From positions 1 through 44,606 of the IMG/VR virus record IMGVR_UViG_2711768040_000011: DNA of 44,606 nt; one strand, 5' to 3'. The stretch's first letter is position 1, and each line of letters opens with the position of its first letter. Both the position numbers and the translations under genes were made by a program. The notes beneath the pieces were generated by a model. The model did not search any database. It was not told where the DNA came from and saw nothing but the letters and a program-made list of their open reading frames with translations. Below, piece after piece: positions 27,666-44,606 of this stretch. Source of the stretch: a virus (lineage: Duplodnaviria > Heunggongvirae > Uroviricota > Caudoviricetes).

Positions 27666-27832
27666 GCAGATTTTCTCCTCGCCGCGAGACGCAGCCATTT
27701 CTGATCCACCAGACGGGCGGTGTAGCCCTTCAGTGTCGGGATGTCGGACGGCTTAACCGCAGGCTTACGCTGGCGGCGCGCAGGAACGCGGAATATTTCG
27801 TTTGTGATGATGCGGGAAAGTGGAGTAGACAT
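27662..27832 (-). CDS. small hypothetical protein (56 aa, NinF-position), not in supplied ORF track
   Basis: Hand-translated [23 protein letters not shown]...; AGGAGG SD; ATGA overlaps with NinB stop and phosphatase start. Confidence 0.45.
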
Positions 27833-28287
27833 CAGGCCTCCTGCTTATCGCGCAGCTGCTGGTATTCACAGCTCTGCGGAATGGTCAGGTGGCAGCCGAT
27901 ATTCATCGCCCAGGCTTCGACCTTGCACAGGAAGATGTACATTTCGCCAGTTTCCAGATCAGACGTATGGCGGAGGGATTGGACGGTGGTGACCTCGCCG
28001 GACACGACGTCTACACGGTCTTTGCTTTCGTAGCCGAGATAGGTGTGCTTCATCGCGTCTTTGACCCACTCAGGCGTAGCGAAGGTCTTGCCGCGGGCGA
28101 TGAGGTACTCGCTGATTTCCGTGTACCACATGTGGCTGAGCGCGTTCTGTGACAGGCTGCGCTTCTCTCGCCACGGCTTAACCTGCAGGCGGAAGCACTG
28201 CCCGGCATCCAGCAATGGCTGAATCTGCTGGCCGATGGCCGCGAAGTTGCCACGATGGAGTTTGATACCGTCTACTGGCAGAGTCAT
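27832..28287 (-). CDS. ninB: NinB recombination protein
   Basis: 151-aa ORF with EKRSLSQNA block resembling lambda NinB; position ahead of nin genes. Confidence 0.7.
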   Translation of the reverse strand: MTLPVDGIKLHRGNFAAIGQQIQPLLDAGQCFRLQVKPWREKRSLSQNALSHMWYTEISEYLIARGKTFATPEWVKDAMKHTYLGYESKDRVDVVSGEVTTVQSLRHTSDLETGEMYIFLCKVEAWAMNIGCHLTIPQSCEYQQLRDKQEA

Positions 28288-28499
28288 ACGGCCTCCTTAA
28301 CGGAAACCGCAGAATGCAGAAAATCGCAGGTGCATTTCTGCATCTGTGACAATGTGAGGAGTTCAGATTGTGGTCGCATTTAAGTCCCCTTAAATGCGCA
28401 GAAGTCACCAATGGGTGTTCAGACCATCAGCAAAGAAAGTATGGACGGTTGATTCAACAAAATCAACTGAAGAGAAAGGCCTCCGGAGAGGCCAATGAG

Positions 28500-30904: not shown

Positions 30905-31335
30905 GACTGCACTCCTTTGCGAAGCTCGTCGGCGAAGTTCTCAGCATCTGCGGCCATGCCAGCAGCCTCTTCAGACATCCTCATGCTTCGGCTACGCAGA
31001 GCCTGCTGTCGTTCTCGCTTATGTGCGGCAAACATCTCCACACCCTGCGCCCGCACTTCAGCCAGGAAAGCGTCGGTGGCTGGGGTTTTGACCTTATTCG
31101 CAGCGAACTCAATTTTTTCTTTCGTGTCTCTGCCGATTTCGCTTGAGCCCAACTTTCCGATGAAGCTAACGATTTGGTCAGGGAACTGCTTCAGCCCCGC
31201 ATTCTCCGCAGCCAGCGCAGCGAATGTGGTTTCAAACACGTTAAGCAGAGTCGTAACTTCTGCCGGTGACATGTGCTCACCACATTCTGCATTCACCCTG
31301 GCGTTTTTAATCAGATCTTCGTATTTGTTGCTCAT
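30901..31335 (-). CDS. hypothetical protein
   Basis: 144 aa from ATG 31335 with GGGGGAGGG SD; the longer ORF to 31692 is a composition-odd extension. Confidence 0.5.
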   Translation of the reverse strand: MSNKYEDLIKNARVNAECGEHMSPAEVTTLLNVFETTFAALAAENAGLKQFPDQIVSFIGKLGSSEIGRDTKEKIEFAANKVKTPATDAFLAEVRAQGVEMFAAHKRERQQALRSRSMRMSEEAAGMAADAENFADELRKGVQS

Positions 31336-31631
31336 ACCCCTACCCTCCCCCAAACCATCAATACTCGCTTCATCGCCGCGCTGTTGCGGCACTCCTGAAA
31401 TATTCCGTTGGTGCAGCTGCGCGCGGTACCATCTTGCTCTTCCGGCGTCGCCAGGCGGTAAGTCACCGTTCGCCAGACCTTGCTCACGCGCACAATCTTC
31501 CTGGCCCGCTCCAGATCGATAGCGTTCTTGGTGATGCAGTTGATGGTCATGACGCACTCTGTGGCCACATCCTTCGCAGTGAAGGTCCGGTGCGTTTCGA
31601 GATAACGCAGAATTGCCTGTTTGCCTTTCAT
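31332..31631 (-). CDS. hypothetical protein
   Basis: 99-aa ORF between helicase and downstream genes, coupled overlaps. Confidence 0.45.
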   Translation of the reverse strand: MKGKQAILRYLETHRTFTAKDVATECVMTINCITKNAIDLERARKIVRVSKVWRTVTYRLATPEEQDGTARSCTNGIFQECRNSAAMKRVLMVWGRVGV

Positions 31632-33067
31632 CAGAAGCCCCCTTTCTTTTTCGGCTGCTGCTCGCGCCCGCGACGTTCTGCGGCGGCGGCATGCTGGTCT
31701 GTGTCGTAAATTGCCCCGTTAATCTGATTGCAATAAACCGTTCCGGTACTGCCGTGGCGGTTGAGTCGCAGGATTAACTCGGTTTCGCCCGGCGGCACGC
31801 TGTCATCGAAAGCACCTTCCCGGTGGATACCAACCCAGTAGTCGCAGTCCTGCTCAATCTGTCCTGTGTCGCGGGAATCACTCGGCAACGGGCGTTTATT
31901 CACTCGCTTCTCCAGTTCGCGGTTGAGCTGAGTCAGCAGCACGACGACGCAGCCAAGCTCTTTGGCCAGGTTCTTCAACCCTTTGGTGATCATCCCGTAG
32001 GCCAGGTCATTACGGTCTGCTTTTTCGGCGGTCATCAGCGTCAGGTAGTCAACCAGAATCATGCCTACGCAGCCTTTCTCGCGCTTAATTCGACGGCATT
32101 CGGTAACGATATGCGCCAGTGACAGGCCAGGAGTGTCGTCGATGTACAGCATGTCGATTTCACTCAGCCGCCCGGCTGTTGCGATCGCCTTCTTAAAGTC
32201 GCCGTCGTAGTCGCCCTGATACTGGTCATCGGCATCATCCGTGGCGGGCATGTAAAAAATGCTCGGGTTAATGCCCGACTTCTGACCAACCAGTTTTTCG
32301 AGGATCTGGTCGCCTGGCATTTCCAGGCTGAACATCAGCGCCGGCTTTTTCTCACGAACCGCGCAGTTGATCGCCATCTGCCCGTACAGGGTTGTTTTGC
32401 CCATTTTTGGCCTTGCGCCAATTACGAACAGAGAGCCTTTAACCAGACCTTTCGGCGCCAGCAGCCGGTCGAGTGACGGGATACCGGTACTCATGCCGCG
32501 CTGTTCGCCTGAGGGGTCAAATCGTTTTTCCAGATCTGCTACCCAGTCATCCATAACCTCGCCGAACGACCGCAACCCACGACGATTTCCGGTTTTTGAA
32601 TGATCTGCGAGCTGGGTGAAGATACCCTGAATGGCCTCATACTTCTGCGTAGCGCTCATACCGTTGCGGGAATACAGCAGCTCAGTAGCTTCGGTCAGAC
32701 GGTTGATACCGTAGCGCTCCATTGCGGCTTCCCGGACTGATTCTGCGTATGCCACGATGTTTGCTGCGCTTGGAGTGTTCTTGGCTATCTCCGCCAGGTA
32801 AGCAAAGCCACCTACCTGCTCCGCGAGCCCTTTTCCTTCAAGCGCGTCGAACAATGTCAGACCATCGACTGGCTTGTTGTCGCGGAACATCTGGCGCATC
32901 TCGGCAAAGATCAGCTGGTGAGGTCGGCTGTAGAACGACTCAGGCTTGAGCATCGCCAGAACCTTCTGGACTCGCTCGCTGTTGTCATCATCCAGCAGCA
33001 GGCCACCGATAACGCTCTGCTCCGCTTCGAGGTTTTGTGGCACAGCCATGAATTCAGCGGTCATCAC
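31631..33067 (-). CDS. replicative DNA helicase (DnaB family)
   Basis: 478-aa ORF with Walker A GARPKMGKTT and DnaB-like helicase blocks; overlaps O-like gene stop. Confidence 0.9.
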   Translation of the reverse strand: MMTAEFMAVPQNLEAEQSVIGGLLLDDDNSERVQKVLAMLKPESFYSRPHQLIFAEMRQMFRDNKPVDGLTLFDALEGKGLAEQVGGFAYLAEIAKNTPSAANIVAYAESVREAAMERYGINRLTEATELLYSRNGMSATQKYEAIQGIFTQLADHSKTGNRRGLRSFGEVMDDWVADLEKRFDPSGEQRGMSTGIPSLDRLLAPKGLVKGSLFVIGARPKMGKTTLYGQMAINCAVREKKPALMFSLEMPGDQILEKLVGQKSGINPSIFYMPATDDADDQYQGDYDGDFKKAIATAGRLSEIDMLYIDDTPGLSLAHIVTECRRIKREKGCVGMILVDYLTLMTAEKADRNDLAYGMITKGLKNLAKELGCVVVLLTQLNRELEKRVNKRPLPSDSRDTGQIEQDCDYWVGIHREGAFDDSVPPGETELILRLNRHGSTGTVYCNQINGAIYDTDQHAAAAERRGREQQPKKKGGF

Positions 33068-33959
33068 GATCCCCCTCGCGCACTTCGATGTAGAGCTTTT
33101 CGGTCAGGAACTTATCGAATTTCATGCGGCGCCAGGTTTTCCCGGATTTCTGGTCTGGTCGGTCTTCAAGCATCCAGCGGCAGTTTTGAGCGATATATCG
33201 CAGATAGCTTCTGAAACCGTCCATATCCATCGGCTTGCCGTCCAGGTTGCGGGCAATCTTGTTAGCCTTACCCCAGAAGGTGCGGATCAGATTGCGTCGC
33301 TCATCAGTGAGGCATCTCCATCCCCGGGCTTCAGGCAGTTCGTCTTTCAGGCATTGCCATACTTCATCGCATGACAAACGGGACTTTTTCTCTTCAGCGG
33401 GGTTCTGGTCATTTGCGACATACTTACTACCTTTAGGTAGTAAGTTATTTAATATATTGTTATCTGTGGACACCGGCTGGACATCGGCTGGACACACATC
33501 CTCCACAGGCATTGTTATTACTGCGTTTGCGCTGGACACTGGCTGGACATCGGCTGGACAAAAATTTGACTGATATTCGTCATATTTGACCACTTTTAGA
33601 ACAGTAAAACGGTTGTTCGATTTGGTGGTGATCATGCCCAGATTCTGGAATTTACGGAGCAGTGATTTAACGCGATCAGCGGTCAAACCCGTTTCCATTG
33701 CCAGCGTGTTACGCCCGGTGATGAACTCGCCGCGCTCGCAGATCACATCGCCAACATCAGTCGATACCAGTGTCTGTTCGTGATTAGCGCGCAGGAGCAG
33801 GTGAACCCATAAATGAGCCGCCTCAGCGTCCTTGTAGAACGGCACATCCATAATTTTACGGTGCAGCAAGGCAAACCCCTTACCGTCATTCGTGCGCGGT
33901 TTCTGGAGCCTTCTGGCCTCTCTGGCTTCGGCTAAATTGGATACGTTACCCACGGCCAC
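33054..33959 (-). CDS. replication initiation protein (lambda O-like) containing ori iterons
   Basis: 301-aa ORF upstream of helicase; DNA iterons inside the gene encode duplicated CPADVQPVS peptide; GTG start with AAGGAGAG SD. Confidence 0.7.
   Translation of the reverse strand: MAVGNVSNLAEAREARRLQKPRTNDGKGFALLHRKIMDVPFYKDAEAAHLWVHLLLRANHEQTLVSTDVGDVICERGEFITGRNTLAMETGLTADRVKSLLRKFQNLGMITTKSNNRFTVLKVVKYDEYQSNFCPADVQPVSSANAVITMPVEDVCPADVQPVSTDNNILNNLLPKGSKYVANDQNPAEEKKSRLSCDEVWQCLKDELPEARGWRCLTDERRNLIRTFWGKANKIARNLDGKPMDMDGFRSYLRYIAQNCRWMLEDRPDQKSGKTWRRMKFDKFLTEKLYIEVREGDRDDR
33465..33565. repeat. replication origin iterons (two clusters of GGCTGGACA-type repeats) followed by AT-rich segment
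   Basis: tggacaccggctggacatcggctggaca ... gctggacactggctggacatcggctggacaaaaatttgactgatattcgtcatatttgacc. Confidence 0.6.
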
Positions 33960-34185
33960 TCTCCTTACGTTTCAATTCTTCCAGGATGGCGCGCATCTTC
34001 TCTGCCACAATCGGGTTAACCGAGCGGATGAAGCGGTCGCGGGCTATGTTTTTATGTACAGCGGTATGGTAATAGCGTGGATTTTTTGCCATTATTCCTC
34101 CTGCAATGAGTGCACACGATTTGCATCTGAAGGCCAGTTCTGTTCGCGCAGACTGGCTTTCGCCATTTTTGATACTTCCCATCAC
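33946..34185 (-). CDS. small hypothetical protein
   Basis: 79-aa ORF between YdaT-like gene and O-like gene. Confidence 0.4.
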   Translation of the reverse strand: MMGSIKNGESQSARTELAFRCKSCALIAGGIMAKNPRYYHTAVHKNIARDRFIRSVNPIVAEKMRAILEELKRKESGRG

Positions 34186-34724
34186 ATAACCCCCAGCATC
34201 GACGTGACCATCGTCATCAGTGGTCCTACCTGCTCCGGCATGAGGCGGAACAGCGAAGCTATACCCTCGCTTACCTCTTTCAGCTTCTGATGCTCTGGGG
34301 CGTCCAAAAGCACGGCCTGTTTAGCTTCAGCACACTCTTTCATCGCAGAAGCGATCAGCGACATCGTGTCGTTCTGCGGCGCCAGGCGGTTGCGGTACTC
34401 CAGCGGCAATACGGACATGATTGCGGGTGTCAGCTGGCGCACGTTCTCGCGGTACTGTTCGGAGTCGAAACGGTTATCCAGGAAGCGGAACAGCTTCTGG
34501 CGCGCACGGCTGATGTCGTCAGGAAAGCTGATGGCGGTCCCGCCCTGCTCCCGGTATTCGTTGATGATCAGTGCCGAAACGACGTCCTGATTGTCCAGCG
34601 CCGAAGACCATGCCCGGACCGCATCGCGGATCTTTTCGTGGTCAGGCGCCGCCTTAGGTTGAGCGCGGTTTATCATCGCTCCCGGGTGTATTCCGGTATT
34701 GTGTTGATACGCAAGTGAATGCAT
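34182..34724 (-). CDS. YdaT-like protein (functional CII-equivalent family of Rac-type prophages)
   Basis: INEYREQGG and LTPAIMSVLPLEYRNRL blocks resemble Rac YdaT; located directly downstream of Cro-like gene. Confidence 0.6.
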   Translation of the reverse strand: MHSLAYQHNTGIHPGAMINRAQPKAAPDHEKIRDAVRAWSSALDNQDVVSALIINEYREQGGTAISFPDDISRARQKLFRFLDNRFDSEQYRENVRQLTPAIMSVLPLEYRNRLAPQNDTMSLIASAMKECAEAKQAVLLDAPEHQKLKEVSEGIASLFRLMPEQVGPLMTMVTSMLGVM

Positions 34725-34741
34725 TGCTTTCCCTTTCGTGG

Positions 34742-34975
34742 TTAGGCCGCAGTATCACGCGGCGATGCGAATACCAGGCTTTCTTTTAGGACCGGAGCCT
34801 GGCGGTGAAAATTCTTCGTGCCTTTCTCGATAGCAGATGCCATTTCTGGAGATGCCCGGCGATTTCCGTAGGCGATCTGGTCCAGGTAACCTGGCGTCGT
34901 GTTAGCCAACTTTGCGAGCTGCGCCCATTCGTCGGTAGTGGCGGCCTTGCGCCAGCGGTGTAGTTCAGTGCTCAT
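34742..34975 (-). CDS. Cro-like / YdaS-like HTH regulator
   Basis: 77-aa ORF with HTH (WAQLAKLANTTPGYLDQIAYG), divergent from cI across operator region. Confidence 0.65.
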   Translation of the reverse strand: MSTELHRWRKAATTDEWAQLAKLANTTPGYLDQIAYGNRRASPEMASAIEKGTKNFHRQAPVLKESLVFASPRDTAA

Positions 34976-35007
34976 TGGTGTCTCCGGGTGAGTCGTTTGA
35001 TTTGGAG

Positions 35008-35073
35008 TTTAGCGTTATGCTAAATACTACGCAAGCATCATTTAGCAATTTGCACATTTATCATTTTGCTAAA
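35008..35073. promoter_or_regulatory. OR-like operator cluster (TTTAGC-N5-GCTAAA palindromes) with divergent promoters
   Basis: TTTAGCgttatGCTAAA at 35008-35024, TTTATCattttGCTAAA at 35057-35073, weaker site at 35041-35057. Confidence 0.5.
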
Positions 35074-35091
35074 AGCAGTAACAATGCAGGT

Positions 35092-35769
35092 ATGGAAAAT
35101 AAAGAAATCAGAAAAGCCAACCTGGAAGCGCTGTACGAGAAGCGTCAGCACGAGTCTGGAATGACCAAAGCGCAGTTTGCCGAGCTCATCGAGACAAGTC
35201 CGGCTGCGCTTAGCCAGCTACTGGGACCAAACCCTCATCGCAATATCGGCGATAAGATGGCTCGCAAAATTGAAACTGCGCTTGATCTGCCTTTTGGCTG
35301 GATGGATGTTTTACACGCCAGTGAAGAACCTTCGAACGTTGCATTTCGAGGACTGAACGAGACAAAAGGAAGTTATCCTGTAATCAGCTGGGTAAGCGCG
35401 GGGCAATGGATGGAAGCTGTAGAACCTTATCACCGAAGAGCGATAGATCGCTGGTATGACACGACTGTTGACTGCTCAGAAGATTCATTCTGGCTGGACG
35501 TTAAAGGGGATTCTATGACCTCCCCGGCTGGACTGAGCATACCCGAGGGAGCAGCGATACTTGTTGATCCTGAAGTCGAGCCGCGCAACGGAAAGCTGGT
35601 TGTCGCGAAGCTAGAAGGCGATAACGAAGCGACCTTTAAGAAGCTTGTAATCGATGCCGGCAGACGCTTCCTAAAGCCCCTTAACCCCGCATATCCAATG
35701 CTAGAAATTAATGGAAACTGCAAAATCATCGGCGTTGTGGTTGATGCCAAAATACTAAACATCCCATAA
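35092..35769 (+). CDS. cI: CI-type prophage repressor (HTH + LexA-like S24 autopeptidase)
   Basis: N-terminal HTH, Ala-Gly cleavage site (SAGQW), GDSM Ser and FKKL Lys motifs; ATG 35092 (ORF open from 34975). Confidence 0.9.
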   Translation: MENKEIRKANLEALYEKRQHESGMTKAQFAELIETSPAALSQLLGPNPHRNIGDKMARKIETALDLPFGWMDVLHASEEPSNVAFRGLNETKGSYPVISWVSAGQWMEAVEPYHRRAIDRWYDTTVDCSEDSFWLDVKGDSMTSPAGLSIPEGAAILVDPEVEPRNGKLVVAKLEGDNEATFKKLVIDAGRRFLKPLNPAYPMLEINGNCKIIGVVVDAKILNIP

Positions 35770-35788
35770 CCTCACGCAAAACCCCTCA

Positions 35789-35813
35789 AGCCCGCCATCG
35801 CGCGGGCTTTTTT
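35789..35813 (+). terminator. rho-independent terminator after cI
   Basis: agcccgc-catcgc-gcgggct hairpin followed by TTTTTT. Confidence 0.6.
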
Positions 35814-35885
35814 ACGTCCCGAATTCCTTCGCTGTAAATTTTTAATCGCTTATTAATCAATACGCTAAATAAAACCATTCAACAA

Positions 35886-35927
35886 TTTAGCATTTTGCTA
35901 TTGCGCATAATTTAGCATCACGCTAAA
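35886..35927. promoter_or_regulatory. OL-like operator cluster (TTTAGC-N5-GCTAAA)
   Basis: Perfect TTTAGCatcacGCTAAA at 35911-35927 and partial TTTAGCattttGCTAtt at 35886-35902. Confidence 0.45.
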
Positions 35928-36124
35928 TTCACCCTATCGAAACGAAACATCGACAGCTGAGCGAAGTTAGCCAGCGGCGAAGTGGAGATTCGGTCAGTCG
36001 AACGGCGCGACAGTAAACCATGCGTCGGACCATAGGCGGGCTCAGGAAGAGCGGCAATTATGGCTAAACGATTTACCAGCAGCTCTTTGCGAGGGGCTGA
36101 CGGTAAACAATCAGAGGGGTGTAT

Positions 36125-36466
36125 ATGTCAGATAAAAAAATGGCGCCACTACTGCTCAATGTAGACGCCAGCGAAGTGCTTACCCAGACCGGGGAGCTTT
36201 TAAAGTTACTTGAACTTCCAGCCAGCTCCCTTCAGGGAATTCCTGAGCATGTCGTCGATCTGTTTTTTGACCGTGTCCGTGGCCTGATTGACAACATCGT
36301 CCTTAGTGATTTCGCGACCACAGTCAGCACAACTGACGCCGGTGAAATTTGTCTCAAAGTCAAAATCATCGGGCTGGTTGAACATCTCACTTCCGCAGTC
36401 AGGGCACACGGTCCGCATGGTTTGCATGAACATATCCTTTCTACTGTTGGGGAGCTTAAAGAGTAA
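36125..36466 (+). CDS. hypothetical protein (first gene of early-left operon); conflicts with antisense ORF
   Basis: 113-aa ORF with GAGGGG SD, same strand as downstream early genes; not Arg-rich. Confidence 0.4.
   Translation: MSDKKMAPLLLNVDASEVLTQTGELLKLLELPASSLQGIPEHVVDLFFDRVRGLIDNIVLSDFATTVSTTDAGEICLKVKIIGLVEHLTSAVRAHGPHGLHEHILSTVGELKE
36206..36433 (-). CDS. alternative antisense small zinc-ribbon protein (two CxxCG pairs)
   Basis: MFMQTMRTVCPDCG...CADCG ORF with AAAGGA SD; fully overlaps 36125-36466 on opposite strand, so only one is likely real. Confidence 0.3.
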   Translation of the reverse strand: MFMQTMRTVCPDCGSEMFNQPDDFDFETNFTGVSCADCGREITKDDVVNQATDTVKKQIDDMLRNSLKGAGWKFK

Positions 36467-36655
36467 GCGATTTCTTGCTGTTGGGGAATAGCGGGAAAGC
36501 GCGCGCCGGGCGCGGATAAATACCCCGGCAATAACTGGAATGTTTTGTAGTGCAGTGAATTGCAGCTGCATCGACGGCAACCGGAAGATAAGCACCCGGC
36601 GCTGCACCACAAAGCATTTCTCCCGCATCAGCGGGTAACGACAGAGGGTAAGGGG

Positions 36656-36952
36656 ATGATCGACGACATCAAGCGCATCGACTCAATGATAAATGCGCTT
36701 CGCAATATGAAACAGGACATCAAGCGTCAGCAGAAACTAAGTGAAATAAACAGTTTAGACCTGTCGCCGAAGCAAGCTCAAAAGCGCAATGCCGATGCTG
36801 ACTGGATTGCGATGGAACAGATTAAGCGTCGGCATGAGCTGCACGCTCTGTCTGTTGAGCTTGGGTTCGCTGAGCGCCGGGAAAGTTATGCTCCATTTGA
36901 ATTAACTGACGGGTGGCACCGATTCGACCACAAGCCGCGCGAACCTCAATAG
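36656..36952 (+). CDS. hypothetical protein
   Basis: 98 aa from ATG 36656 with GGGTAAGGGG SD (ORF open from 36560). Confidence 0.5.
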   Translation: MIDDIKRIDSMINALRNMKQDIKRQQKLSEINSLDLSPKQAQKRNADADWIAMEQIKRRHELHALSVELGFAERRESYAPFELTDGWHRFDHKPREPQ

Positions 36953-37107
36953 CCGCCTAACCAGCGGCTTTTTCATACCTGGAGTCATTTACGAGTGGCT
37001 CAAGTTATGACAACCGGCGGCCATCCACCGCCCATTGAAACACTGAATAAATGCGTTGAAGTCTTGTATTAACCGTTCCGTTCGCCGCGATAAGGCCAAG
37101 AGGATTT

Positions 37108-37317
37108 ATGAGTGATTTGGAGTTGGGCTTAAAGATATACGCATTATGGTTTGTCGGGACGTTTCTGCTCGGCATAGCAATCAACTCGCTGACGAAAAAA
37201 GAACATCGCCAGCCACTTTCAAAACTAGCCATTGACCATGTACGCATGTCTTCCGCAATAACCATTGTGGGCCTGATTGTGTGCGGTATGGGCTGGTTCT
37301 TATTCAAGGTGGTGTGA
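37108..37317 (+). CDS. small membrane protein (two predicted TM helices)
   Basis: 69-aa ORF, AAGAGGA SD, hydrophobic segments. Confidence 0.55.
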   Translation: MSDLELGLKIYALWFVGTFLLGIAINSLTKKEHRQPLSKLAIDHVRMSSAITIVGLIVCGMGWFLFKVV

Positions 37318-37318
37318 G

Positions 37319-37477
37319 ATGACAGTCACCCACAACGGCAAGCAGTACACCGCCAAAAAGCTCAACGATAACGAGTGGCAGCTGACGTCGGTATCTAACC
37401 CGCGTGAAAAGCTGACGATGAACCGCTGGCATATGAAGCTGGCTGGCCTCCTGGAACAGGTTGAGGTGAAGGCATGA
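37319..37477 (+). CDS. small hypothetical protein
   Basis: 52-aa ORF MTVTHNGKQY... starting right after previous stop. Confidence 0.4.
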   Translation: MTVTHNGKQYTAKKLNDNEWQLTSVSNPREKLTMNRWHMKLAGLLEQVEVKA

Positions 37478-37683
37478 TCAACCACTACGGCACCACCCCG
37501 CTCATTCGCCAGTGCGTCACGCCCGGCATGATGGCATTGCATGAAGGCCGCACATATCGCGTCTCAGCAGTCATTCAGGAGCGCAAATGGGTATACCTGC
37601 ACACTGACGCAGAAATAATCCGACTCAGTGACTGCGTGATTGACGTCCTTCTTGACGGTCACGGCAACCCTATCCAGCACTAA
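37474..37683 (+). CDS. small hypothetical protein
   Basis: 69-aa ORF with ATGA overlap to upstream ORF. Confidence 0.45.
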   Translation: MINHYGTTPLIRQCVTPGMMALHEGRTYRVSAVIQERKWVYLHTDAEIIRLSDCVIDVLLDGHGNPIQH

Positions 37684-37753
37684 CCACCCTATTCAACCGT
37701 TCGGCCTGGCATTACGCGGGCGGGATCTGCACATCCAAATTTCAGGAGAAACC

Positions 37754-38725
37754 ATGAGCGAAGTAACGGACTTAACTGTCATCGAAATCAAGCCGGAACA
37801 GGCCCCAGTGCTTTACGTAGCGGGCGGCCTTGACGCGTACCTTGAGCAAATCCGCCAGGCTGTAAACGAAGTGCCGGACCTGTCCACGAAGAAAGGCCGT
37901 GACCGTGTTGCCTCTCTGGCAGCGCAGGTGTCCCGCAGCAAGACGGCAATCGAAAAGCCGGGCCGTGAGTACCTGAAGCGCCTGAAAGAGGCTGTGCGTC
38001 CGGCTGAGGCCGAAATTAAGCGATTCGTTGATGCCTGCGACGAGCTGCGCGATGCGACCCGCCGCCCACTCACCGAATGGGAAGCCGAGCAGGAACGCAT
38101 TAAGGCTGAAGAAGCCATGAACGCGATGCACGCCGAAGCGCTGGAGATGAACATCAGGTTCGATCAGGAACTGGCTGCCAAGTTCGAAGCGGACCACGAA
38201 ATGGCTCTACTGATGAACAAGGATTTTGACCGTGACCGCGAAGAGCAGCGCCGTCTGGCGGAACAGGCTCAGCGTGAACGTGATGAGCGGCTGAAACAGG
38301 AAGCGGCAGAACAAGCCCGCCGCGATGCCGAAGCGAAGCACAAAGCGGAGATTGAAGCCGCAGCGCGCCGTGAAGCCGAAGAGAAAGCCCGCGCTGAACT
38401 GGCGGAGCGCCAGCGCGTCGAAGCGGAACAGCGTGCAGCTCGCGAGAAGCAGGAAGCGGAAGCCCGGGCGGAACGCGAAAAAGCCGCGGCGGTTGAAGCC
38501 GAGCGCCTGAAGGCCAAACAGGCCGAAGATGCCCGCCTGGCCGAAGAGAAGCGCCTCGCCGATGAGCAGGCAAAGCGTGAAGCTGACGTTAAGCACCGCA
38601 AGACGGTCGGCACCAACATCGTTAACGCGCTCACCAGCCAAACCAGCTTAACCCGCGAGCAGGCTATCGAAGTGCTTACCGCTCTGAAAGATGACCTGAT
38701 CCCCTGCGCGAAAATTCATTACTGA
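37754..38725 (+). CDS. coiled-coil protein with long E/A/R/K-rich low-complexity region
   Basis: Start MSEVTDLTVIEIK with AGGAGA SD (ORF open from 37640); about 150 aa of AEQARRDAEAKHKAEIEAAARREAEEKARAE-type repeats. Confidence 0.6.
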   Translation: MSEVTDLTVIEIKPEQAPVLYVAGGLDAYLEQIRQAVNEVPDLSTKKGRDRVASLAAQVSRSKTAIEKPGREYLKRLKEAVRPAEAEIKRFVDACDELRDATRRPLTEWEAEQERIKAEEAMNAMHAEALEMNIRFDQELAAKFEADHEMALLMNKDFDRDREEQRRLAEQAQRERDERLKQEAAEQARRDAEAKHKAEIEAAARREAEEKARAELAERQRVEAEQRAAREKQEAEARAEREKAAAVEAERLKAKQAEDARLAEEKRLADEQAKREADVKHRKTVGTNIVNALTSQTSLTREQAIEVLTALKDDLIPCAKIHY

Positions 38726-41922: not shown

Positions 41923-42012
41923 ACAGCATCAGCGCATCGCCGTGTGGCGGGTGACATCCCGCCAAATAACGACGATCAACTGAACATCAACACATTATAT
42001 GTACATACGACC

Positions 42013-43104
42013 ATGAACATTCAGATCAAAACACTATCTGTCCGAATTAAAGACAAGCACGCAGCCGTTTTGCGGCAGATGGCCTTTGAGGTCAATCAGA
42101 TCTTTAATCTGGCAAACGAGATAACCAGCGCAGCATACGGCAACGCTGGCTTTTTTGGCGCGCAAAAACCGCAATGGCTATCGGCGTTTGATGTTCAGAA
42201 ACCGCTCCTTAAAGAGCGAAAAGAGCGCGGGTATACCATCCCCAGCCATACCGTACAGGAAATCGCAGCAATTCACGGCAAGGCACGGAAGCAATTTAAA
42301 CGCTCTCGCTTACGCTGGCGAGTCAGTGGGGGATCTCGCCGTTCGTTGGGTTGGGTGCCGTTTAAAATAGGCAGCGCTGTCTGGAAAAATGGCGCGGTGC
42401 GGTTCGCTGGCAGGATTTTTAATGTCTGGGATAGCTACGGCTTGGGAGGATTTAAATTCCGTGCTGGAAGCTTTTCAGAAGACAGCCGTGGACGCTGGTA
42501 CTTCAATGTTTGCGTAGAGGTCGAAACTGTCCCATCAACGGCCACTTCCGCCGTGGGTATCGATTTAGGGCTGAAAGACTACGCCACCCCGTCAGAAGGT
42601 GATCCGCTGATTGCCGGTAGATTCTATCGAGATCTGGAGCCTGCATTAGGAAAGGCACAGCGTGCAAACAAAAAAGCCCGTGTACGCGCCATACACGCCA
42701 AAATTAAGAACCGCCGCAAAGATGCCCTGCACAAGTACAGCACGGCGCTGGTTAACAGCCATGCGGCAATATTCGTAGGCGACGCGAGCAGTAAGAAACT
42801 GGTTAAAACCAAAATGGCAAAAAGCATTTTGGACGCTGGCTGGTTCATGCTCAAAACACAACTGGAATATAAAGCGATTGCGCGGTCAGTGGTGTTTGAA
42901 GTGGTCAACGAAAGTTATTCCACCCAAGCTTGTTCGTGTTGCGGGGCTATCTCCGCCAACAGTCCGAAAGGTAGAGCAGGCCTGCGAATAAGAGAATGGA
43001 CTTGTTGTGAGTGCGGAACCACTCATGACCGCGACGTGAACGCCGCAAAGAACATTCTCGCGGCGGGGCATCGCCGTCTAGCTGTAGGAATCCCCTTCCT
43101 TTAG
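42013..43104 (+). CDS. tnpB: TnpB (RNA-guided endonuclease / IS605 OrfB family transposase accessory protein)
   Basis: RuvC-like blocks (SAVGIDLGLKDYAT; DRDVNAAKNIL) and C-terminal zinc finger CSCCG...CCECG; ATG 42013. Confidence 0.85.
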   Translation: MNIQIKTLSVRIKDKHAAVLRQMAFEVNQIFNLANEITSAAYGNAGFFGAQKPQWLSAFDVQKPLLKERKERGYTIPSHTVQEIAAIHGKARKQFKRSRLRWRVSGGSRRSLGWVPFKIGSAVWKNGAVRFAGRIFNVWDSYGLGGFKFRAGSFSEDSRGRWYFNVCVEVETVPSTATSAVGIDLGLKDYATPSEGDPLIAGRFYRDLEPALGKAQRANKKARVRAIHAKIKNRRKDALHKYSTALVNSHAAIFVGDASSKKLVKTKMAKSILDAGWFMLKTQLEYKAIARSVVFEVVNESYSTQACSCCGAISANSPKGRAGLRIREWTCCECGTTHDRDVNAAKNILAAGHRRLAVGIPFL

Positions 43105-43228: not shown

Positions 43229-43444
43229 ATGAATGACAGCATCCTGGTTACAAGCGAAATCCTTGCGCGCTACAAAATATCGCGCAGCACGCTCTATTTC
43301 TGGAGCACTCCCGCACGTATGCCATCCAGCTTTTCATGCCCATTCCCGAAACCAACCATCCCCGGAAATCCGAAGCGCTGGCGTGAGTCAGAAATCAAGT
43401 CATGGGAAGACAAGGTCAACTTTGCTAAAGGGGATACCCAATAA
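43229..43444 (+). CDS. alpA: AlpA-family phage regulatory protein / excisionase
   Basis: 71-aa ORF MNDSILVTSEILARYKISRSTLYFW (AlpA-type HTH), GGAGA SD, adjacent to integrase. Confidence 0.7.
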   Translation: MNDSILVTSEILARYKISRSTLYFWSTPARMPSSFSCPFPKPTIPGNPKRWRESEIKSWEDKVNFAKGDTQ

Positions 43445-44606
43445 TCTCCTGCAAATGCTTCTGCCAGATATCCAGCCATTCATGCTGATCGTCCATATAG
43501 TCATGAAGGTTGTATCTGGCCATAACCCCGCCCATCTGATGTCCGAGCAACTTTTCTATAACGTGTGGTGGAGCGCCAAGCTCGGACAGGCGCGTGGCCA
43601 CCGTTCTCCGCAAATCATGTAATGACCACTCCTTCATTCCGTTCTTACGCACTACCTGCATTGAGTACGTCGAGACAAGCGTCTGCCCAGGTGGGACATC
43701 TTCTTTATCCCGGAACTGTGCTGGAGTCAGAACGTGCTTAGTGATTGATCCGCGTTGATGCTCTTGCAGAAGCCTGACCGCAGTATCCGGCAACGCACGA
43801 CGAATAGTTTTACCGGTCTTATAATCCTCTGCCGGCACAGTCCAGGACCTTTCTTTGAAATCGAACCACTCCCATCTCGACTTTCTTATTTCTGCGGCGC
43901 GGCATCCGGTTAGAATCATGAACCTGATTACCAGTTGTTGAGAGGGAGGCAGAGAGAAAAGAGTATCCCACACCTGCTTTATCTCACTATCTGAAAGCCG
44001 CCTCTCCTTCATCTTCGCTGCTATACCGACATCCGATTTTCGTAACGACTCCAGTGGATTGGTTTTGATTACTCCCCTGTTGTGGCAGAACCGGAAAGCA
44101 CGCTTGGTCAGAGACAGCATCTCACCTGATATGACACTCCTCCCCATTGCATCGAAAACCTCAAGCCAGTTCGCCTTCACTGTCTGGTCCACAATAGCCT
44201 TCCCTAGCCGCGGGCTAATGTGCTTTTTGAAGCTTTTACCGTTCGCATCAATTTTAATGAGCCCCTCCGGGATACAGTAATGCTTCACCCAGTACTCATA
44301 GGCCTCATCGACTGTCAGCGCTTCTATTCTTTCAGCCTTCTCCACCAGCACTTTCTGCCGGGGATCATACCCCTCGCTCAACCACGCTCTGAACTGCTGT
44401 CTTCTGTCTCTCGCCTGAGAGAGTGAAATAGTTGGATAGTCACCAATGCTTAACTGCACAGGCTTGCCCAGCCAGCGATACCGATAGAAGAATGTGATAG
44501 AACCGGTTATGCTTAGACGCACATTCAGTCCGTTTGAATCAGAGAGAACCTCAACCTTCTCCCTGCGCTTTCCGAGCGACTTTCGTAACTTAGTATCTGT
44601 GAGCAC
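43425..44606 (-). CDS. int: tyrosine integrase (P4-like), N-terminus runs off window end
   Basis: HxxR block (HDLRRTVAT), LLGH and catalytic Tyr region (ARYNLHDY); first codon at the window edge. Confidence 0.9.
   Translation of the reverse strand: MLTDTKLRKSLGKRREKVEVLSDSNGLNVRLSITGSITFFYRYRWLGKPVQLSIGDYPTISLSQARDRRQQFRAWLSEGYDPRQKVLVEKAERIEALTVDEAYEYWVKHYCIPEGLIKIDANGKSFKKHISPRLGKAIVDQTVKANWLEVFDAMGRSVISGEMLSLTKRAFRFCHNRGVIKTNPLESLRKSDVGIAAKMKERRLSDSEIKQVWDTLFSLPPSQQLVIRFMILTGCRAAEIRKSRWEWFDFKERSWTVPAEDYKTGKTIRRALPDTAVRLLQEHQRGSITKHVLTPAQFRDKEDVPPGQTLVSTYSMQVVRKNGMKEWSLHDLRRTVATRLSELGAPPHVIEKLLGHQMGGVMARYNLHDYMDDQHEWLDIWQKHLQEIIGYPL

What the first reader, a model, noticed from the sequence alone, without database searches (positions are those of the whole stretch)
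34182..34975. Cro-like regulator followed by a YdaT-like (CII-equivalent) gene rather than a lambda CII
The gene after the Cro-like HTH gene shows blocks resembling Rac-prophage YdaT (INEYREQGG; LTPAIMSVLPLEYRNRL), which has been described as a functional CII analogue. This gives the lysis-lysogeny circuit a Rac/CP-933P-type architecture, combined with a LexA-like CI.
Basis: partly seen in the sequence, partly recalled or inferred. Interest (0 to 1): 0.35.

Follow-up and report, generated by a model that had tools for sequence, protein, structure and literature searches.

The report
Phi80-type (YdaT-family) cII lysogeny gene
The gene after the Cro-like gene is a 92%-identical copy of phage phi80's cII, a YdaT-family DNA-binding protein that does lambda CII's job without being related to it; this arrangement is already known and ordinary, although comparison with relatives points to its likely binding site and target promoter inside its own 5' end.

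Summary
Window 34742-34975 (-) is a 77-aa Cro-position HTH gene. Window 34182-34724 (-) is a 180-aa protein matching Pfam YdaT_toxin (E=5e-28) and PHROG 163 'CII-like transcriptional activator' (E=1e-60), with no hit to lambda CII.

The closest known relative is phage phi80 CII (92% aa identity, same length), not Rac YdaT (33% over 89 aa). The AF2 model's best PDB match is the YdaT homologue 3c4r. cI and cro are unrelated to phi80's, and homology to phi80 starts at the cro stop codon, so this is a mosaic lambdoid immunity region. It has a LexA-like (S24) CI, tripartite OR/OL operators, an oop/M3-like antisense hairpin, and an O-like gene plus DnaB.

Across 37 non-redundant homologues, a TGAT-N8-ATCA box (window 34659-34676) lies exactly 20 nt from an antisense TAnnnT -10 (34697-34702). 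Both are conserved at wobble positions although the amino acids vary. This places the box at -41.5 of a pRE-like promoter aimed through cro at cI, and Rac shows the same geometry.

A perfect YdaT box (28449-28466) also overlaps a conserved promoter upstream of ninB.

Verdict: already known kind, low interest. The cis-element inferences are testable extras.

The parts
34182..34724 (-). cII-like gene (180 aa), YdaT family, orthologue of phage phi80 cII. Residues 1-26 form a disordered N-tail. Predicted helices: 29-43, 46-59, recognition helix 71-83 (SRARQKLFRFLD), 89-105, 120-139, 144-159 and 163-176.
   Evidence: Pfam YdaT_toxin E=5e-28; phrog_163 E=1.2e-60; 92% identity to phi80 CII and 94% to KO-TP1 gp25; AF2 model pLDDT 78.5; best PDB fold match 3c4r, TM 0.70.
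34742..34975 (-). Cro-position small HTH gene (77 aa), first gene of the rightward early operon.
   Evidence: ORF; HTH_3 E=0.0026 and phrog_35 E=7.5e-8; no similarity to phi80 Cro/gp30; the homologue in Klebsiella phage KO-TP1 is annotated as Cro.
34659..34676 (.). Candidate CII (YdaT-type) box. It reads TTGAGCGCGGTTTATCAT on the + strand and ATGATAAACCGCGCTCAA in the cII sense (cII nt 49-66, codons M17-Q22).
   Evidence: The TGAT-N8-ATCA core has at most 1 mismatch at this position in 37/37 non-redundant homologues. T50, G51, A52, T63 and C64 are invariant although the encoded amino acids vary. The box is perfect (TTGATTTCGATTTATCAA) in phage ENT1, whose CII is only 32.5% identical. The location is homologous to the footprinted Rac YdaT-box (PMC11879457).
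34697..34702 (+). Candidate -10 hexamer TATTGT of a pRE-like promoter antisense to cII. The predicted start is near 34709, and the transcript would run antisense through cro into cI.
   Evidence: TAnnnT lies exactly 20 nt from the box in 37/37 homologues. cII nt A23, T27 and A28 are invariant, and T27 is a wobble base under 6 different amino acids. Rac has the same box + 20 nt + TATGAT layout. Promoter function is inferred; the generic sigma-70 scan finds nothing here.
34128..34170 (+). oop/M3-like antisense hairpin followed by a T-run, between the cII stop codon and the next gene.
   Evidence: Inverted repeat I3; fold -25.1 kcal/mol, z=-2.55; it matches in position the annotated M3 RNA of phi80 and the M3-like RNA of HK639, with a different stem sequence. 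No Rfam hit.
35092..35769 (+). cI repressor, LexA-like (HTH plus S24 peptidase), divergent from cro. It is the presumed target of the pRE-like transcript.
   Evidence: Peptidase_S24 E=1.9e-29, HTH_3 E=8.8e-5; phrog_4 E=1.9e-49; unrelated to phi80 CI.
35008..35073 (.). OR region with three 17-bp operators (35008-35024, 35041-57, 35057-73), consensus TTTAGC-N5-GCTAAA. The matching OL set is at 35853-35927.
28438..28466 (-). nin-leader promoter/operator. A perfect YdaT-type palindrome TTGATTTTGTTGAATCAA (28466->28449) has a first hexamer that can serve as a -35, followed by a 17-nt spacer and CATACT (28443->28438). It reads into ninB (27832-28287).
   Evidence: It is the only 0-mismatch match to TTGATT-N6-AATCAA in the window. 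The same arrangement occurs in phi80, HK639, HK225, CobraSix, 4A7 and phage 82, where -35 and -10 are annotated, and in 19 genome loci. Binding by CII is inferred only.

Best explanation
The 180-aa gene is the cII of a phi80-type early-right cassette. It encodes a YdaT-family transcription factor with a POU-like HTH domain, a long alpha2-alpha3 loop and C-terminal helices, and it acts as the lysogeny-establishment regulator in place of lambda CII. It is transcribed from pR after the Cro-like gene. The proposed mechanism is as follows. The protein binds a TGAT-N8-ATCA inverted repeat lying inside its own coding sequence (34659-34676), centred at about -41.5 of a weak antisense promoter (-10 TATTGT, 34697-34702). 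Like a class II activator, it switches on a leftward transcript that runs antisense through cro and into the LexA-like cI gene. This raises CI and opposes pR transcription, which is the logic of lambda pRE. What is shown here: family membership, orthology to phi80 cII, gene order, and DNA-level conservation of the box and the -10 at fixed spacing. What is inferred: actual binding, activation, the transcription start, tetramerisation, and any role of the second perfect box upstream of ninB.
For: Family and orthology: Pfam YdaT_toxin 5e-28; phrog_163 'CII-like transcriptional activator' 1.2e-60; 92% identity to phi80 CII over all 180 aa; fold match to 3c4r. Recognition helix: QKLFRFLD aligns with QKIFRWLD of CP-933P YdaT, it is invariant in 26 relatives, and its Arg80 aligns with Rac R57, which is needed for DNA binding. 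Context: cI / OR / cro / cII / oop-like hairpin / small ORF / O-like gene / DnaB. Cis elements: of 176 wobble positions in 37 non-redundant genes, only 6 are at least 95% fixed. Three of these fall in the predicted elements. Two sit under six different amino acids each: nt 27, which is the A(-11) of the -10, and nt 63 in the box. The third is box G51, under M, V or L. The rest are the start codon, a Trp codon and a Leu codon. Box-to-(-10) spacing is constant in 37/37 genes. The same box + 20 nt + TATGAT layout exists at Rac's footprinted YdaT-box (PMC11879457). The same box + 20 nt + TATACT layout lies upstream of an excisionase gene (Pfam DUF1233, 2e-22) in three prophages, which would be a pI analogue. 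Published function of relatives: CP-933P YdaT activates a PRE-like promoter between ydaS and ydaT (PMC8630535) and binds TTGATT-N6-AATCAA as a tetramer (PMC9986795); Rac YdaT activates racR via its box (PMC11879457).
Against: No experiment was done on this protein or on phi80 CII binding sites. The window's box has 2 mismatches to TTGAT/ATCAA (1 to the 8-nt core), and the proposed -10 scores only 4/6. The generic promoter scan finds no sigma-70 promoter in 33900-35150. The Rac study places the YdaT-dependent promoter about 190 bp from the box rather than next to it. The conserved bases lie in coding sequence, so some of the conservation could be at the protein level (Ile18 and Gln22 are invariant). 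The 37 sequences are related, so conservation counts are not independent events.
Confidence: 0.85

Rival explanations
1. The pair is a YdaS/YdaT toxin-antitoxin module, as the Pfam names suggest: the 180-aa protein would be a toxin neutralised by the small HTH protein.
For: The Pfam family is named 'Bacterial toxin ydaT', and many database names read 'toxin YdaT domain-containing protein'. Rac YdaT overexpression causes filamentation and death (PMC11879457 abstract).
Against: The literature argues that the toxicity is an overexpression effect of a regulator (PMC5917428). CP-933P YdaT showed no toxicity and is a DNA-binding activator (PMC8630535; PMC9986795). The window's small HTH protein barely matches YdaS_toxin (E=0.073). 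The gene is the named cII of phi80. The model is an HTH fold.
Confidence: 0.03
2. The protein is a YdaT-family DNA-binding regulator, but its main role is not pRE-type activation of cI. Instead it might repress the nin/Q-proximal promoter through the perfect box at 28449-28466, or act on host promoters as Rac YdaT does at rcsA.
For: The best match to the published box in the window is at the nin leader, not at cII. There the box covers the -35 and spacer of a conserved promoter, which is a repressor-like position. All 28 complete phage records carrying this leader also carry a YdaT-type cII. Rac YdaT binds the host rcsA promoter.
Against: The box at the cII 5' end, with its fixed spacing to a -10, is conserved in every homologue examined, whereas only about 40% of genome loci show the nin box within 9 kb. 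The two roles are not mutually exclusive: lambda CII also acts at three promoters.
Confidence: 0.1
3. The conserved nucleotides at cII nt 23-28 and 49-66 reflect protein or translation constraints, such as an internal start at Met17 or a conserved N-terminal peptide, rather than a promoter and operator.
For: The bases are coding. Codon 17 is ATG, GTG or TTG in many homologues, and GGGAG precedes it in the window.
Against: Codon 17 is CTG in 7 of 37 non-redundant genes. The fixed wobble T's at nt 27 and nt 63 each sit under six different amino acids. Residues 1-26 are predicted disordered. The motif is a symmetric inverted repeat matching the box determined experimentally for two distant family members. 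The GGGAG-to-ATG spacing is only 2 nt.
Confidence: 0.07

Closest known systems
Phage phi80 CII (PHI80_49, AFV29185; JX871397 35671-36213)
   Same: Both are 180 aa, with 92% aa and 86.5% nt identity. The first ~75 nt are identical and the upstream RBS/linker nearly so (one mismatch), starting at the cro stop codon. Both sit between cro and an oop/M3-type antisense hairpin and the O-like replication gene. Both have the same +49 box and the same nin-leader palindrome/promoter.
   Different: The flanking immunity cassette differs: cI and cro are unrelated to phi80's. A 48-aa DUF2740 gene is inserted between cII and O. The replication module is O-like plus DnaB rather than gp15/gp14.
CP-933P YdaT (PDB 8bt1; close homologue 3c4r)
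   Same: Same Pfam family. The recognition-helix motif QK[IL]FR[WF]LD is shared, as is the long alpha2-alpha3 loop. The gene lies after a Cro analogue. Published evidence shows binding to TTGATT-N6-AATCAA and activation of a PRE-like promoter between ydaS and ydaT.
   Different: Identity is only about 25%, and the sequence match covers residues 25-108. The window protein has a 26-aa disordered N-terminal extension that carries the box in coding sequence, plus extra C-terminal helices (144-176). The partner repressor in CP-933P is PaaR2 with a TA pair, not an S24-type CI.
E. coli K-12 Rac YdaT (b1358)
   Same: The box overlaps the 5' end of the gene, with the same box + 20 nt + antisense TAnnnT geometry. 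It activates the repressor gene racR.
   Different: Rac YdaT is 140 aa. Its repressor RacR is not LexA-like. The published promoter assignment (PracR4) is about 190 bp from the box. Host targets (rcsA) have been described.
Lambda CII (Pfam Phage_CII)
   Same: Same position in the operon and the same proposed logic: an activator site overlapping the -35 of a weak antisense promoter at the cro/cII junction that drives cI, with further sites elsewhere in the genome. An oop-type antisense RNA lies downstream.
   Different: There is no sequence similarity (no Pfam hit). Lambda CII binds a direct repeat TTGC-N6-TTGC (own knowledge), whereas this family binds an inverted repeat. Lambda CII is about 97 aa against 180 aa here.

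Membership tests
YdaT family (Pfam PF06254) / phi80-type CII (PHROG 163) | Significant match to the family profile | tested here: met
   PF06254 E=5e-28, 97.8 bits (cutoff 21), profile positions 1-90 of 92; phrog_163 E=1.2e-60, positions 1-168 of 168; all 120 listed homologues carry PF06254.
YdaT family (Pfam PF06254) / phi80-type CII (PHROG 163) | POU-like HTH domain with an unusually long alpha2-alpha3 loop, followed by a long helix | tested here: met
   The AF2 model (pLDDT 78.5) has helices 29-43 and 46-59, an 11-residue loop, recognition helix 71-83, helix 89-105 and long C-terminal helices. The top PDB fold hit is 3c4r at probability 1.00 and TM 0.70 over 118 columns. This is model-level evidence only.
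YdaT family (Pfam PF06254) / phi80-type CII (PHROG 163) | Conserved DNA-contacting Arg in the recognition helix (Rac R57) | tested here: met
   R80 aligns with Rac R57 and with the FRW of CP-933P. It is invariant in the 26-sequence alignment.
YdaT family (Pfam PF06254) / phi80-type CII (PHROG 163) | Gene located directly after the Cro analogue and before the replication genes, divergent from the prophage repressor | tested here: met
   Gene order is cI(+) | cro(-) cII(-) small ORF(-) O-like(-) DnaB(-).
YdaT family (Pfam PF06254) / phi80-type CII (PHROG 163) | Binds a TTGATT-N6-AATCAA-type inverted repeat and activates a promoter for the repressor gene | tested here: inconclusive
   Candidate sites exist: 34659-34676 (conserved at the DNA level in 37/37 homologues at -41.5 of an antisense TAnnnT) and a perfect site at 28449-28466. 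Binding and activation cannot be tested with these tools.
YdaT family (Pfam PF06254) / phi80-type CII (PHROG 163) | Tetramer formed through a C-terminal four-helix bundle | not testable with these tools
   Only a monomer model was made. Long C-terminal helices are present.
Lambda CII family (Pfam Phage_CII) | Sequence or profile similarity to lambda CII | tested here: not met
   No Phage_CII hit at E<=0.1 in the Pfam scan. The relation to lambda CII is functional analogy only.
Type II toxin-antitoxin toxin (YdaS/YdaT as a TA pair) | Toxic protein neutralised by a cognate antitoxin encoded next to it | not testable with these tools
   Nothing here supports this. The upstream gene matches YdaS_toxin only at E=0.073. 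The literature reassigns the pair as Cro/CII analogues.

The most novel reading that the evidence does not exclude
YdaT/phi80-type CII proteins may control a lambda-like regulon of up to three promoters through a single inverted-repeat box. The first is a pRE analogue embedded in the first 66 nt of their own coding sequence, with the box at -41.5. The second, in some prophages, is a pI analogue upstream of xis with identical geometry. The third, apparently undescribed, is a perfect box overlapping the -35 and spacer of a conserved promoter at the start of the nin/Q region. CII would shut that promoter off, giving direct CII control over progress toward late gene expression by repression, in place of lambda's antisense paQ.
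Probability: 0.3. Interest if true: 0.45.

Novelty: already known. Interest (0 to 1): 0.18.

Why it matters
As submitted, the finding is a correct annotation of a well-populated, already described class. phi80's cII gene is annotated in the phi80 sequence records. YdaT proteins were shown to be CII analogues in 2021-2025, and PHROG 163 already carries the label. Its practical value is corrective: databases still call these proteins 'toxin YdaT', and here the gene is clearly the lysogeny regulator of a mosaic phi80-like phage. The comparative by-product is more useful. It gives a precise, testable placement of the CII box and pRE-like promoter inside the cII coding sequence, conserved from Rac to phi80-type phages. 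It also identifies a perfect box on a nin-region promoter. If confirmed, these would define the regulon and activation geometry of this CII class.

Tried and rejected
- **Rfam scan, 31000-38000, E<=1:** no oop-like or other relevant family, only a sub-threshold Trp leader hit. The oop/M3-like element therefore rests on positional and structural analogy alone.
- **NCBIfam:** no model matches the cII-like, small-ORF or O-like proteins.
- **Generic sigma-70 scan, 33900-35150:** no promoter found. The one 'terminator' (34682-34696) lies inside the proposed pRE spacer and is probably not a terminator.
- **TTGATT-N6-AATCAA with up to 3 mismatches:** 18 hits against 19 expected, so there is no overall enrichment. 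Only the 0-mismatch hit is meaningful.
- **Lambda-style direct repeats at the cro/cII junction:** I looked by eye at the sequence for TTGC-N6-TTGC-like repeats and found nothing convincing, so I dropped this.
- **pI-like site in the window:** scanning for box + 20 nt + TAnnnT on both strands gave only the pRE-like site plus one likely chance hit at 1077-1120, with about 0.5 expected. The int gene (43425-44606, -) starts at the window edge, so its promoter cannot be examined.
- **Leftward (paQ-like) promoter at the nin box:** rejected. The flank on that side differs in every phage and has no TAnnnT at the right spacing.
- **PDB search with the Cro-like protein:** only non-significant hits to Cro-named chains (E=0.34).
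- **The 79-aa ORF reading of 33946-34185:** rejected in favour of a 48-aa gene starting at 34092, which has an AGGAGG RBS and matches the full length of phrog_1913 and DUF2740.
- **FR-phi paper (PMC13418256):** it shows that a cII deletion makes an Enterobacter phage lytic. I could not verify that its CII is of this family, so I do not use it as evidence.
Full report
**Observation**

The first is a 77-aa gene at 34742..34975 (-). The second is a 180-aa gene at 34182..34724 (-). They are 17 nt apart, with an AAGGGA ribosome-binding site before the second ATG.

- Pfam PF06254 YdaT_toxin, E=5e-28 (97.8 bits, cutoff 21), covering 90 of 92 profile positions.
- PHROG 163 'CII-like transcriptional activator', E=1.2e-60, end to end.
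- No lambda CII family match.
- BLASTP to K-12 Rac YdaT: 33% identity over 89 aa, E=9e-10, spanning both quoted blocks.
- Best PDB sequence hits: 8bt1 (CP-933P YdaT, E=2.8e-4) and 3c4r.

The divergent gene 35092..35769 (+) has HTH_3 plus Peptidase_S24 (E=1.9e-29), so it is a LexA-like CI.

The Cro label for the 77-aa protein is weaker. It rests on position, size, a sub-threshold HTH_3 match (E=0.0026) and phrog_35 (E=7.5e-8). PDB hits to Cro-named chains are not significant.

**What it is**

The nearest characterised relative is the cII gene of phage phi80, not Rac.
- The nucleotide sequence is 86.5% identical to phi80 cII.
- The proteins are both 180 aa and 92% identical.
- Klebsiella phage KO-TP1 gp25 is 94% identical.
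- A chromosomal copy in Enterobacter quasiroggenkampii is 98% identical.

The family is large. There are 918 database clusters at E<=1e-3, and every listed member carries PF06254. Most come from Klebsiella aerogenes, Citrobacter and Enterobacter, and many are still named 'toxin YdaT domain-containing protein'.

An AlphaFold2 model built on 26 relatives has mean pLDDT 78.5. It shows:
- a disordered N-tail (residues 1-26);
- helices 29-43 and 46-59;
- an 11-residue loop;
- a helix at 71-83;
- further helices up to residue 176.

Its only meaningful PDB fold match is 3c4r, the cryptic-prophage YdaT homologue (probability 1.00, TM 0.70 over 118 columns).

The helix 71-83 reads SRARQKLFRFLD. It is invariant among the 26 relatives and aligns with RNTQKIFRWLD of CP-933P YdaT. 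Its Arg80 aligns with Rac R57, which is needed for DNA binding.

**Context and mosaicism**

The window's cro and cI are unrelated to phi80's. Nucleotide homology to phi80 begins at the cro stop codon. The first ~75 nt of cII are 100% identical, and the upstream linker and RBS are nearly so, with one mismatch. The cI-cro cassette is instead shared at about 91% with KO-TP1 and some Enterobacter prophages.

Other features of the region:
- **Operators.** 17-bp operators with consensus TTTAGC-N5-GCTAAA occur three times between cI and cro (35008-35073) and three times beyond cI (35853-35927).
- **oop/M3-like element.** Downstream of cII, on the antisense strand, a hairpin plus T-run (34128-34170; -25.1 kcal/mol, z=-2.55) occupies the place of the annotated M3 (oop-like) RNA of phi80 and HK639. 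It has a different stem sequence. Rfam has no match.
- **Small gene.** A 48-aa DUF2740 gene follows at 33946..34092, with an AGGAGG RBS. PHROG calls it a 'tail protein', which its position makes doubtful.
- **Replication genes.** An O-like initiator (33054..33959) and a DnaB helicase (31631..33067) come next.
- **N region.** Window 36610-37674 is 99% identical to the phi80 N region.

This is a typical mosaic lambdoid early region carrying a phi80-type cII cassette.

**How it most likely works**

Published work gives the functional frame for the family.
- CP-933P YdaT binds TTGATT-N6-AATCAA as a tetramer (PMC9986795).
- CP-933P YdaT switches on an otherwise silent PRE-like promoter between ydaS and ydaT (PMC8630535). 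That paper also states that YdaT is homologous to phi80 CII.
- Rac YdaT footprints on ATGATTCATGAAAATCAA, which overlaps its own start codon, and activates racR (PMC11879457).

I looked for the equivalent elements here. At cII nt 49-66 (window 34676..34659) the sequence is ATGATAAACCGCGCTCAA. The same position reads differently in relatives:

| Phage or prophage | Sequence at cII nt 49-66 |
|---|---|
| Window | ATGATAAACCGCGCTCAA |
| mEp237 | ATGATAAATCGCAATCAA |
| Klebsiella prophage phage (ST16-OXA48phi5.1) | CTGATAAAGCGAAATCAG |
| Enterobacter phage ENT1 (CII only 32.5% identical; encodes LISIYQ instead of MINRAQ) | TTGATTTCGATTTATCAA (perfect) |

I then analysed the window, nine phages and 48 genome loci from many enterobacterial genera, reduced to 37 genes below 90% nt identity.
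- Every gene has the TGAT-N8-ATCA core with at most 1 mismatch at this position.
- Every gene has a TAnnnT hexamer on the antisense strand exactly 20 nt away.
- Of 176 third-codon positions, only six are at least 95% fixed.
- Three of the six are trivial or unexplained: the start codon G, a Trp codon and a Leu codon.
- The other three are G51 (in the box), T63 (in the box, under six different amino acids) and T27 (under six different amino acids). T27 is the complement of the key A at position 2 of the antisense -10.
- The invariant bases in the first 90 nt are essentially these two elements.

Codon 17 is CTG in several genes, which rules out an internal start codon as the explanation.

With the -10 at -12..-7, the box spans -50..-33 and is centred at -41.5. 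This is the classical class II activator position, established for CRP and FNR. The predicted start is near 34709 on the + strand. The transcript would run antisense through cro into cI.

Two further observations support this geometry.
- In Rac the footprinted box is followed, after 20 nt on the antisense strand, by TATGAT.
- In three prophages (L031, L047, L065) a perfect box + 20 nt + TATACT sits just upstream of an excisionase gene (DUF1233, E=2e-22). This would be a pI analogue.

These are comparative inferences, not demonstrations.
- The generic promoter scan finds nothing in this region.
- The sequences are phylogenetically related, so the counts are not independent.
- The Rac paper assigns the YdaT-dependent promoter to a site about 190 bp from the box.

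**A second site**

The only perfect match to the published box in the 44.6-kb window is TTGATTCAACAAAATCAA at 28449-28466. About 0.003 such matches are expected, by my own arithmetic for 12 fixed bases.

It lies after an intrinsic terminator (28478-28493) that follows an ea8.5-like gene. It is 161 nt upstream of ninB (27832..28287).

The same palindrome occurs at the same place in other phages:
- phi80, HK225, HK639, CobraSix and 4A7 have half-sites TTGAT[T/A]...[A/T]ATCAA with unrelated spacers and unrelated upstream flanks.
- In all five it is followed after 5 nt by CATAAT. The window has CATACT.
- In phage 82 the depositors annotated exactly these hexamers as a putative -35 and -10.
- In phi80 the scan scores TTGATA-17-CATAAT at 10/12.

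In 830 kb of the 48 genome loci there are 24 perfect TTGAT-N8-ATCAA sites, against about 0.8 expected. Nineteen of them are this nin-leader arrangement.

All 28 complete phage records that carry the leader also carry a YdaT-type cII. The leader is also present in 2992 of 5426 E. coli genomes, so this association has not been tested rigorously.

The right half-site lies in the promoter spacer, where a bare promoter needs no specific sequence. The palindrome therefore looks like an operator. It covers -35 to -18, so a bound protein would be expected to repress. That the protein is CII is a hypothesis.

**Comparison with known systems, and novelty**

The gene is a member of the YdaT / phi80-CII family by profile, fold model, recognition-helix motif and gene order. 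It is only a functional analogue of lambda CII. The toxin-antitoxin reading implied by the Pfam name has no support here and has been argued against in the literature.

The finding is correct but already known.

What may be new is the precise placement of the box and pRE-like promoter within the coding sequence across the family, and the nin-leader box. I found no mention of ninB or ybcN sites in the Rac paper. I could not read the original phi80 papers.

**Verdict**

- Observation: confirmed.
- Interpretation: supported, with phi80 cII as the proper reference point.
- Novelty: already known.
- Interest: low (0.18).
- Confidence that this is the phage's CII-type lysogeny regulator of the YdaT family: 0.85.
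- Confidence in the specific -41.5 activation model: about 0.6.
- Confidence that the nin-leader box is a CII operator: about 0.3-0.4.

Noticed in passing
window 28438-28466 (- strand); also L004 38718-38746 and L011 50-78: A perfect YdaT-type palindrome, TTGATT-N6-AATCAA, overlaps the -35 and spacer of a conserved promoter-like element (TTGATx-17-CATAAT; CATACT in the window) at the start of the ninB leader. It sits exactly at a mosaic boundary. It is present in all phage records with this leader, all of which also carry a YdaT-type cII. There are 19 such sites in 48 genome loci.
   Followed up: partly
window 28307-28342 and 28385-28411 (- strand): Two highly conserved hairpins lie in the ninB leader. 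One is GCGCATTTAAGGGGACTTAAATGCG (annotated IR4 in phi80). The other is TGCAGAAATGCACCTGCGATTTTCTGCA followed by a T-rich tail. They are nearly identical to phi80's although the surrounding sequence diverges. They could be attenuators or terminators between the nin promoter and ninB.
   Followed up: no
L031 2434-2451, L047 2600-2617, L065 2536-2553: In three enterobacterial prophages a perfect TTGAT-N8-ATCAA box is followed, after 20 nt on the leftward strand, by TATACT, just upstream of an excisionase gene (DUF1233, E=2e-22). The geometry matches the pRE-like site, so this may be a pI analogue. No such site is visible in the window, where int starts at the window edge.
   Followed up: partly
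L003 4178-4195 (E. coli K-12 Rac): The footprinted Rac YdaT-box is followed, 20 nt away on the antisense strand, by TATGAT. This implies a box-proximal antisense promoter at the ydaS/ydaT junction. The published assignment instead places the YdaT-dependent promoter (PracR4) about 190 bp away.
   Followed up: partly
window 41944-43104 (+): A 386-aa TnpB/Cas12f-like ORF (OrfB_IS605 E=9e-13; Cas12f1-like TNB domain E=8e-22) lies next to the integrase gene (43425-44606, -). Enterobacter prophages are known to carry nuclease-dead TnpB-like TldR regulators. I did not examine whether this copy is active, dead or guide-associated.
   Followed up: no
window 33946-34092 (-): A 48-aa gene with a strong AGGAGG RBS lies between cII and the O-like gene. 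It matches DUF2740 and phrog_1913, which PHROG labels 'tail protein'; that is implausible at this position. The mechanical 79-aa ORF (to 34185) probably over-extends it across the oop-like hairpin.
   Followed up: partly
window 34128-34170 (+): An antisense hairpin plus T-run immediately 3' of cII matches, in position, the phi80 M3 (oop-like) RNA terminator. The stem sequence differs but the architecture is kept. There is no Rfam family hit.
   Followed up: partly
window 33465-33570: Repeated GGCTGGACA(c/t)(c/t)GGCTGGACA motifs flank an A+T-rich stretch inside the O-like gene. They look like origin iterons, at the position where phi80 has annotated gp15 binding sites within gene 15.
   Followed up: no
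window 33662-33679: GTGATTTAACGCGATCAG is the only other perfect TGAT-N8-ATCA core in the window. It lies inside the O-like gene about 1 kb from the cII box. About 0.7 such cores are expected by chance, so it may be meaningless. A tetrameric YdaT could in principle bridge two sites.
   Followed up: no
window 35008-35073 and 35853-35927: Tripartite OR and OL sets of 17-bp operators have consensus TTTAGC-N5-GCTAAA, with two perfect copies. A strong intrinsic terminator follows cI (about 35789-35812). The whole-window count of near matches (26) exceeds the shuffled expectation (16).
   Followed up: partly
window 36610-37674: This stretch is 99.2% identical to phage phi80 31772-32836 (N antiterminator region), much higher than the 85-92% seen in other shared segments. 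That suggests recent exchange with a phi80-like phage.
   Followed up: no
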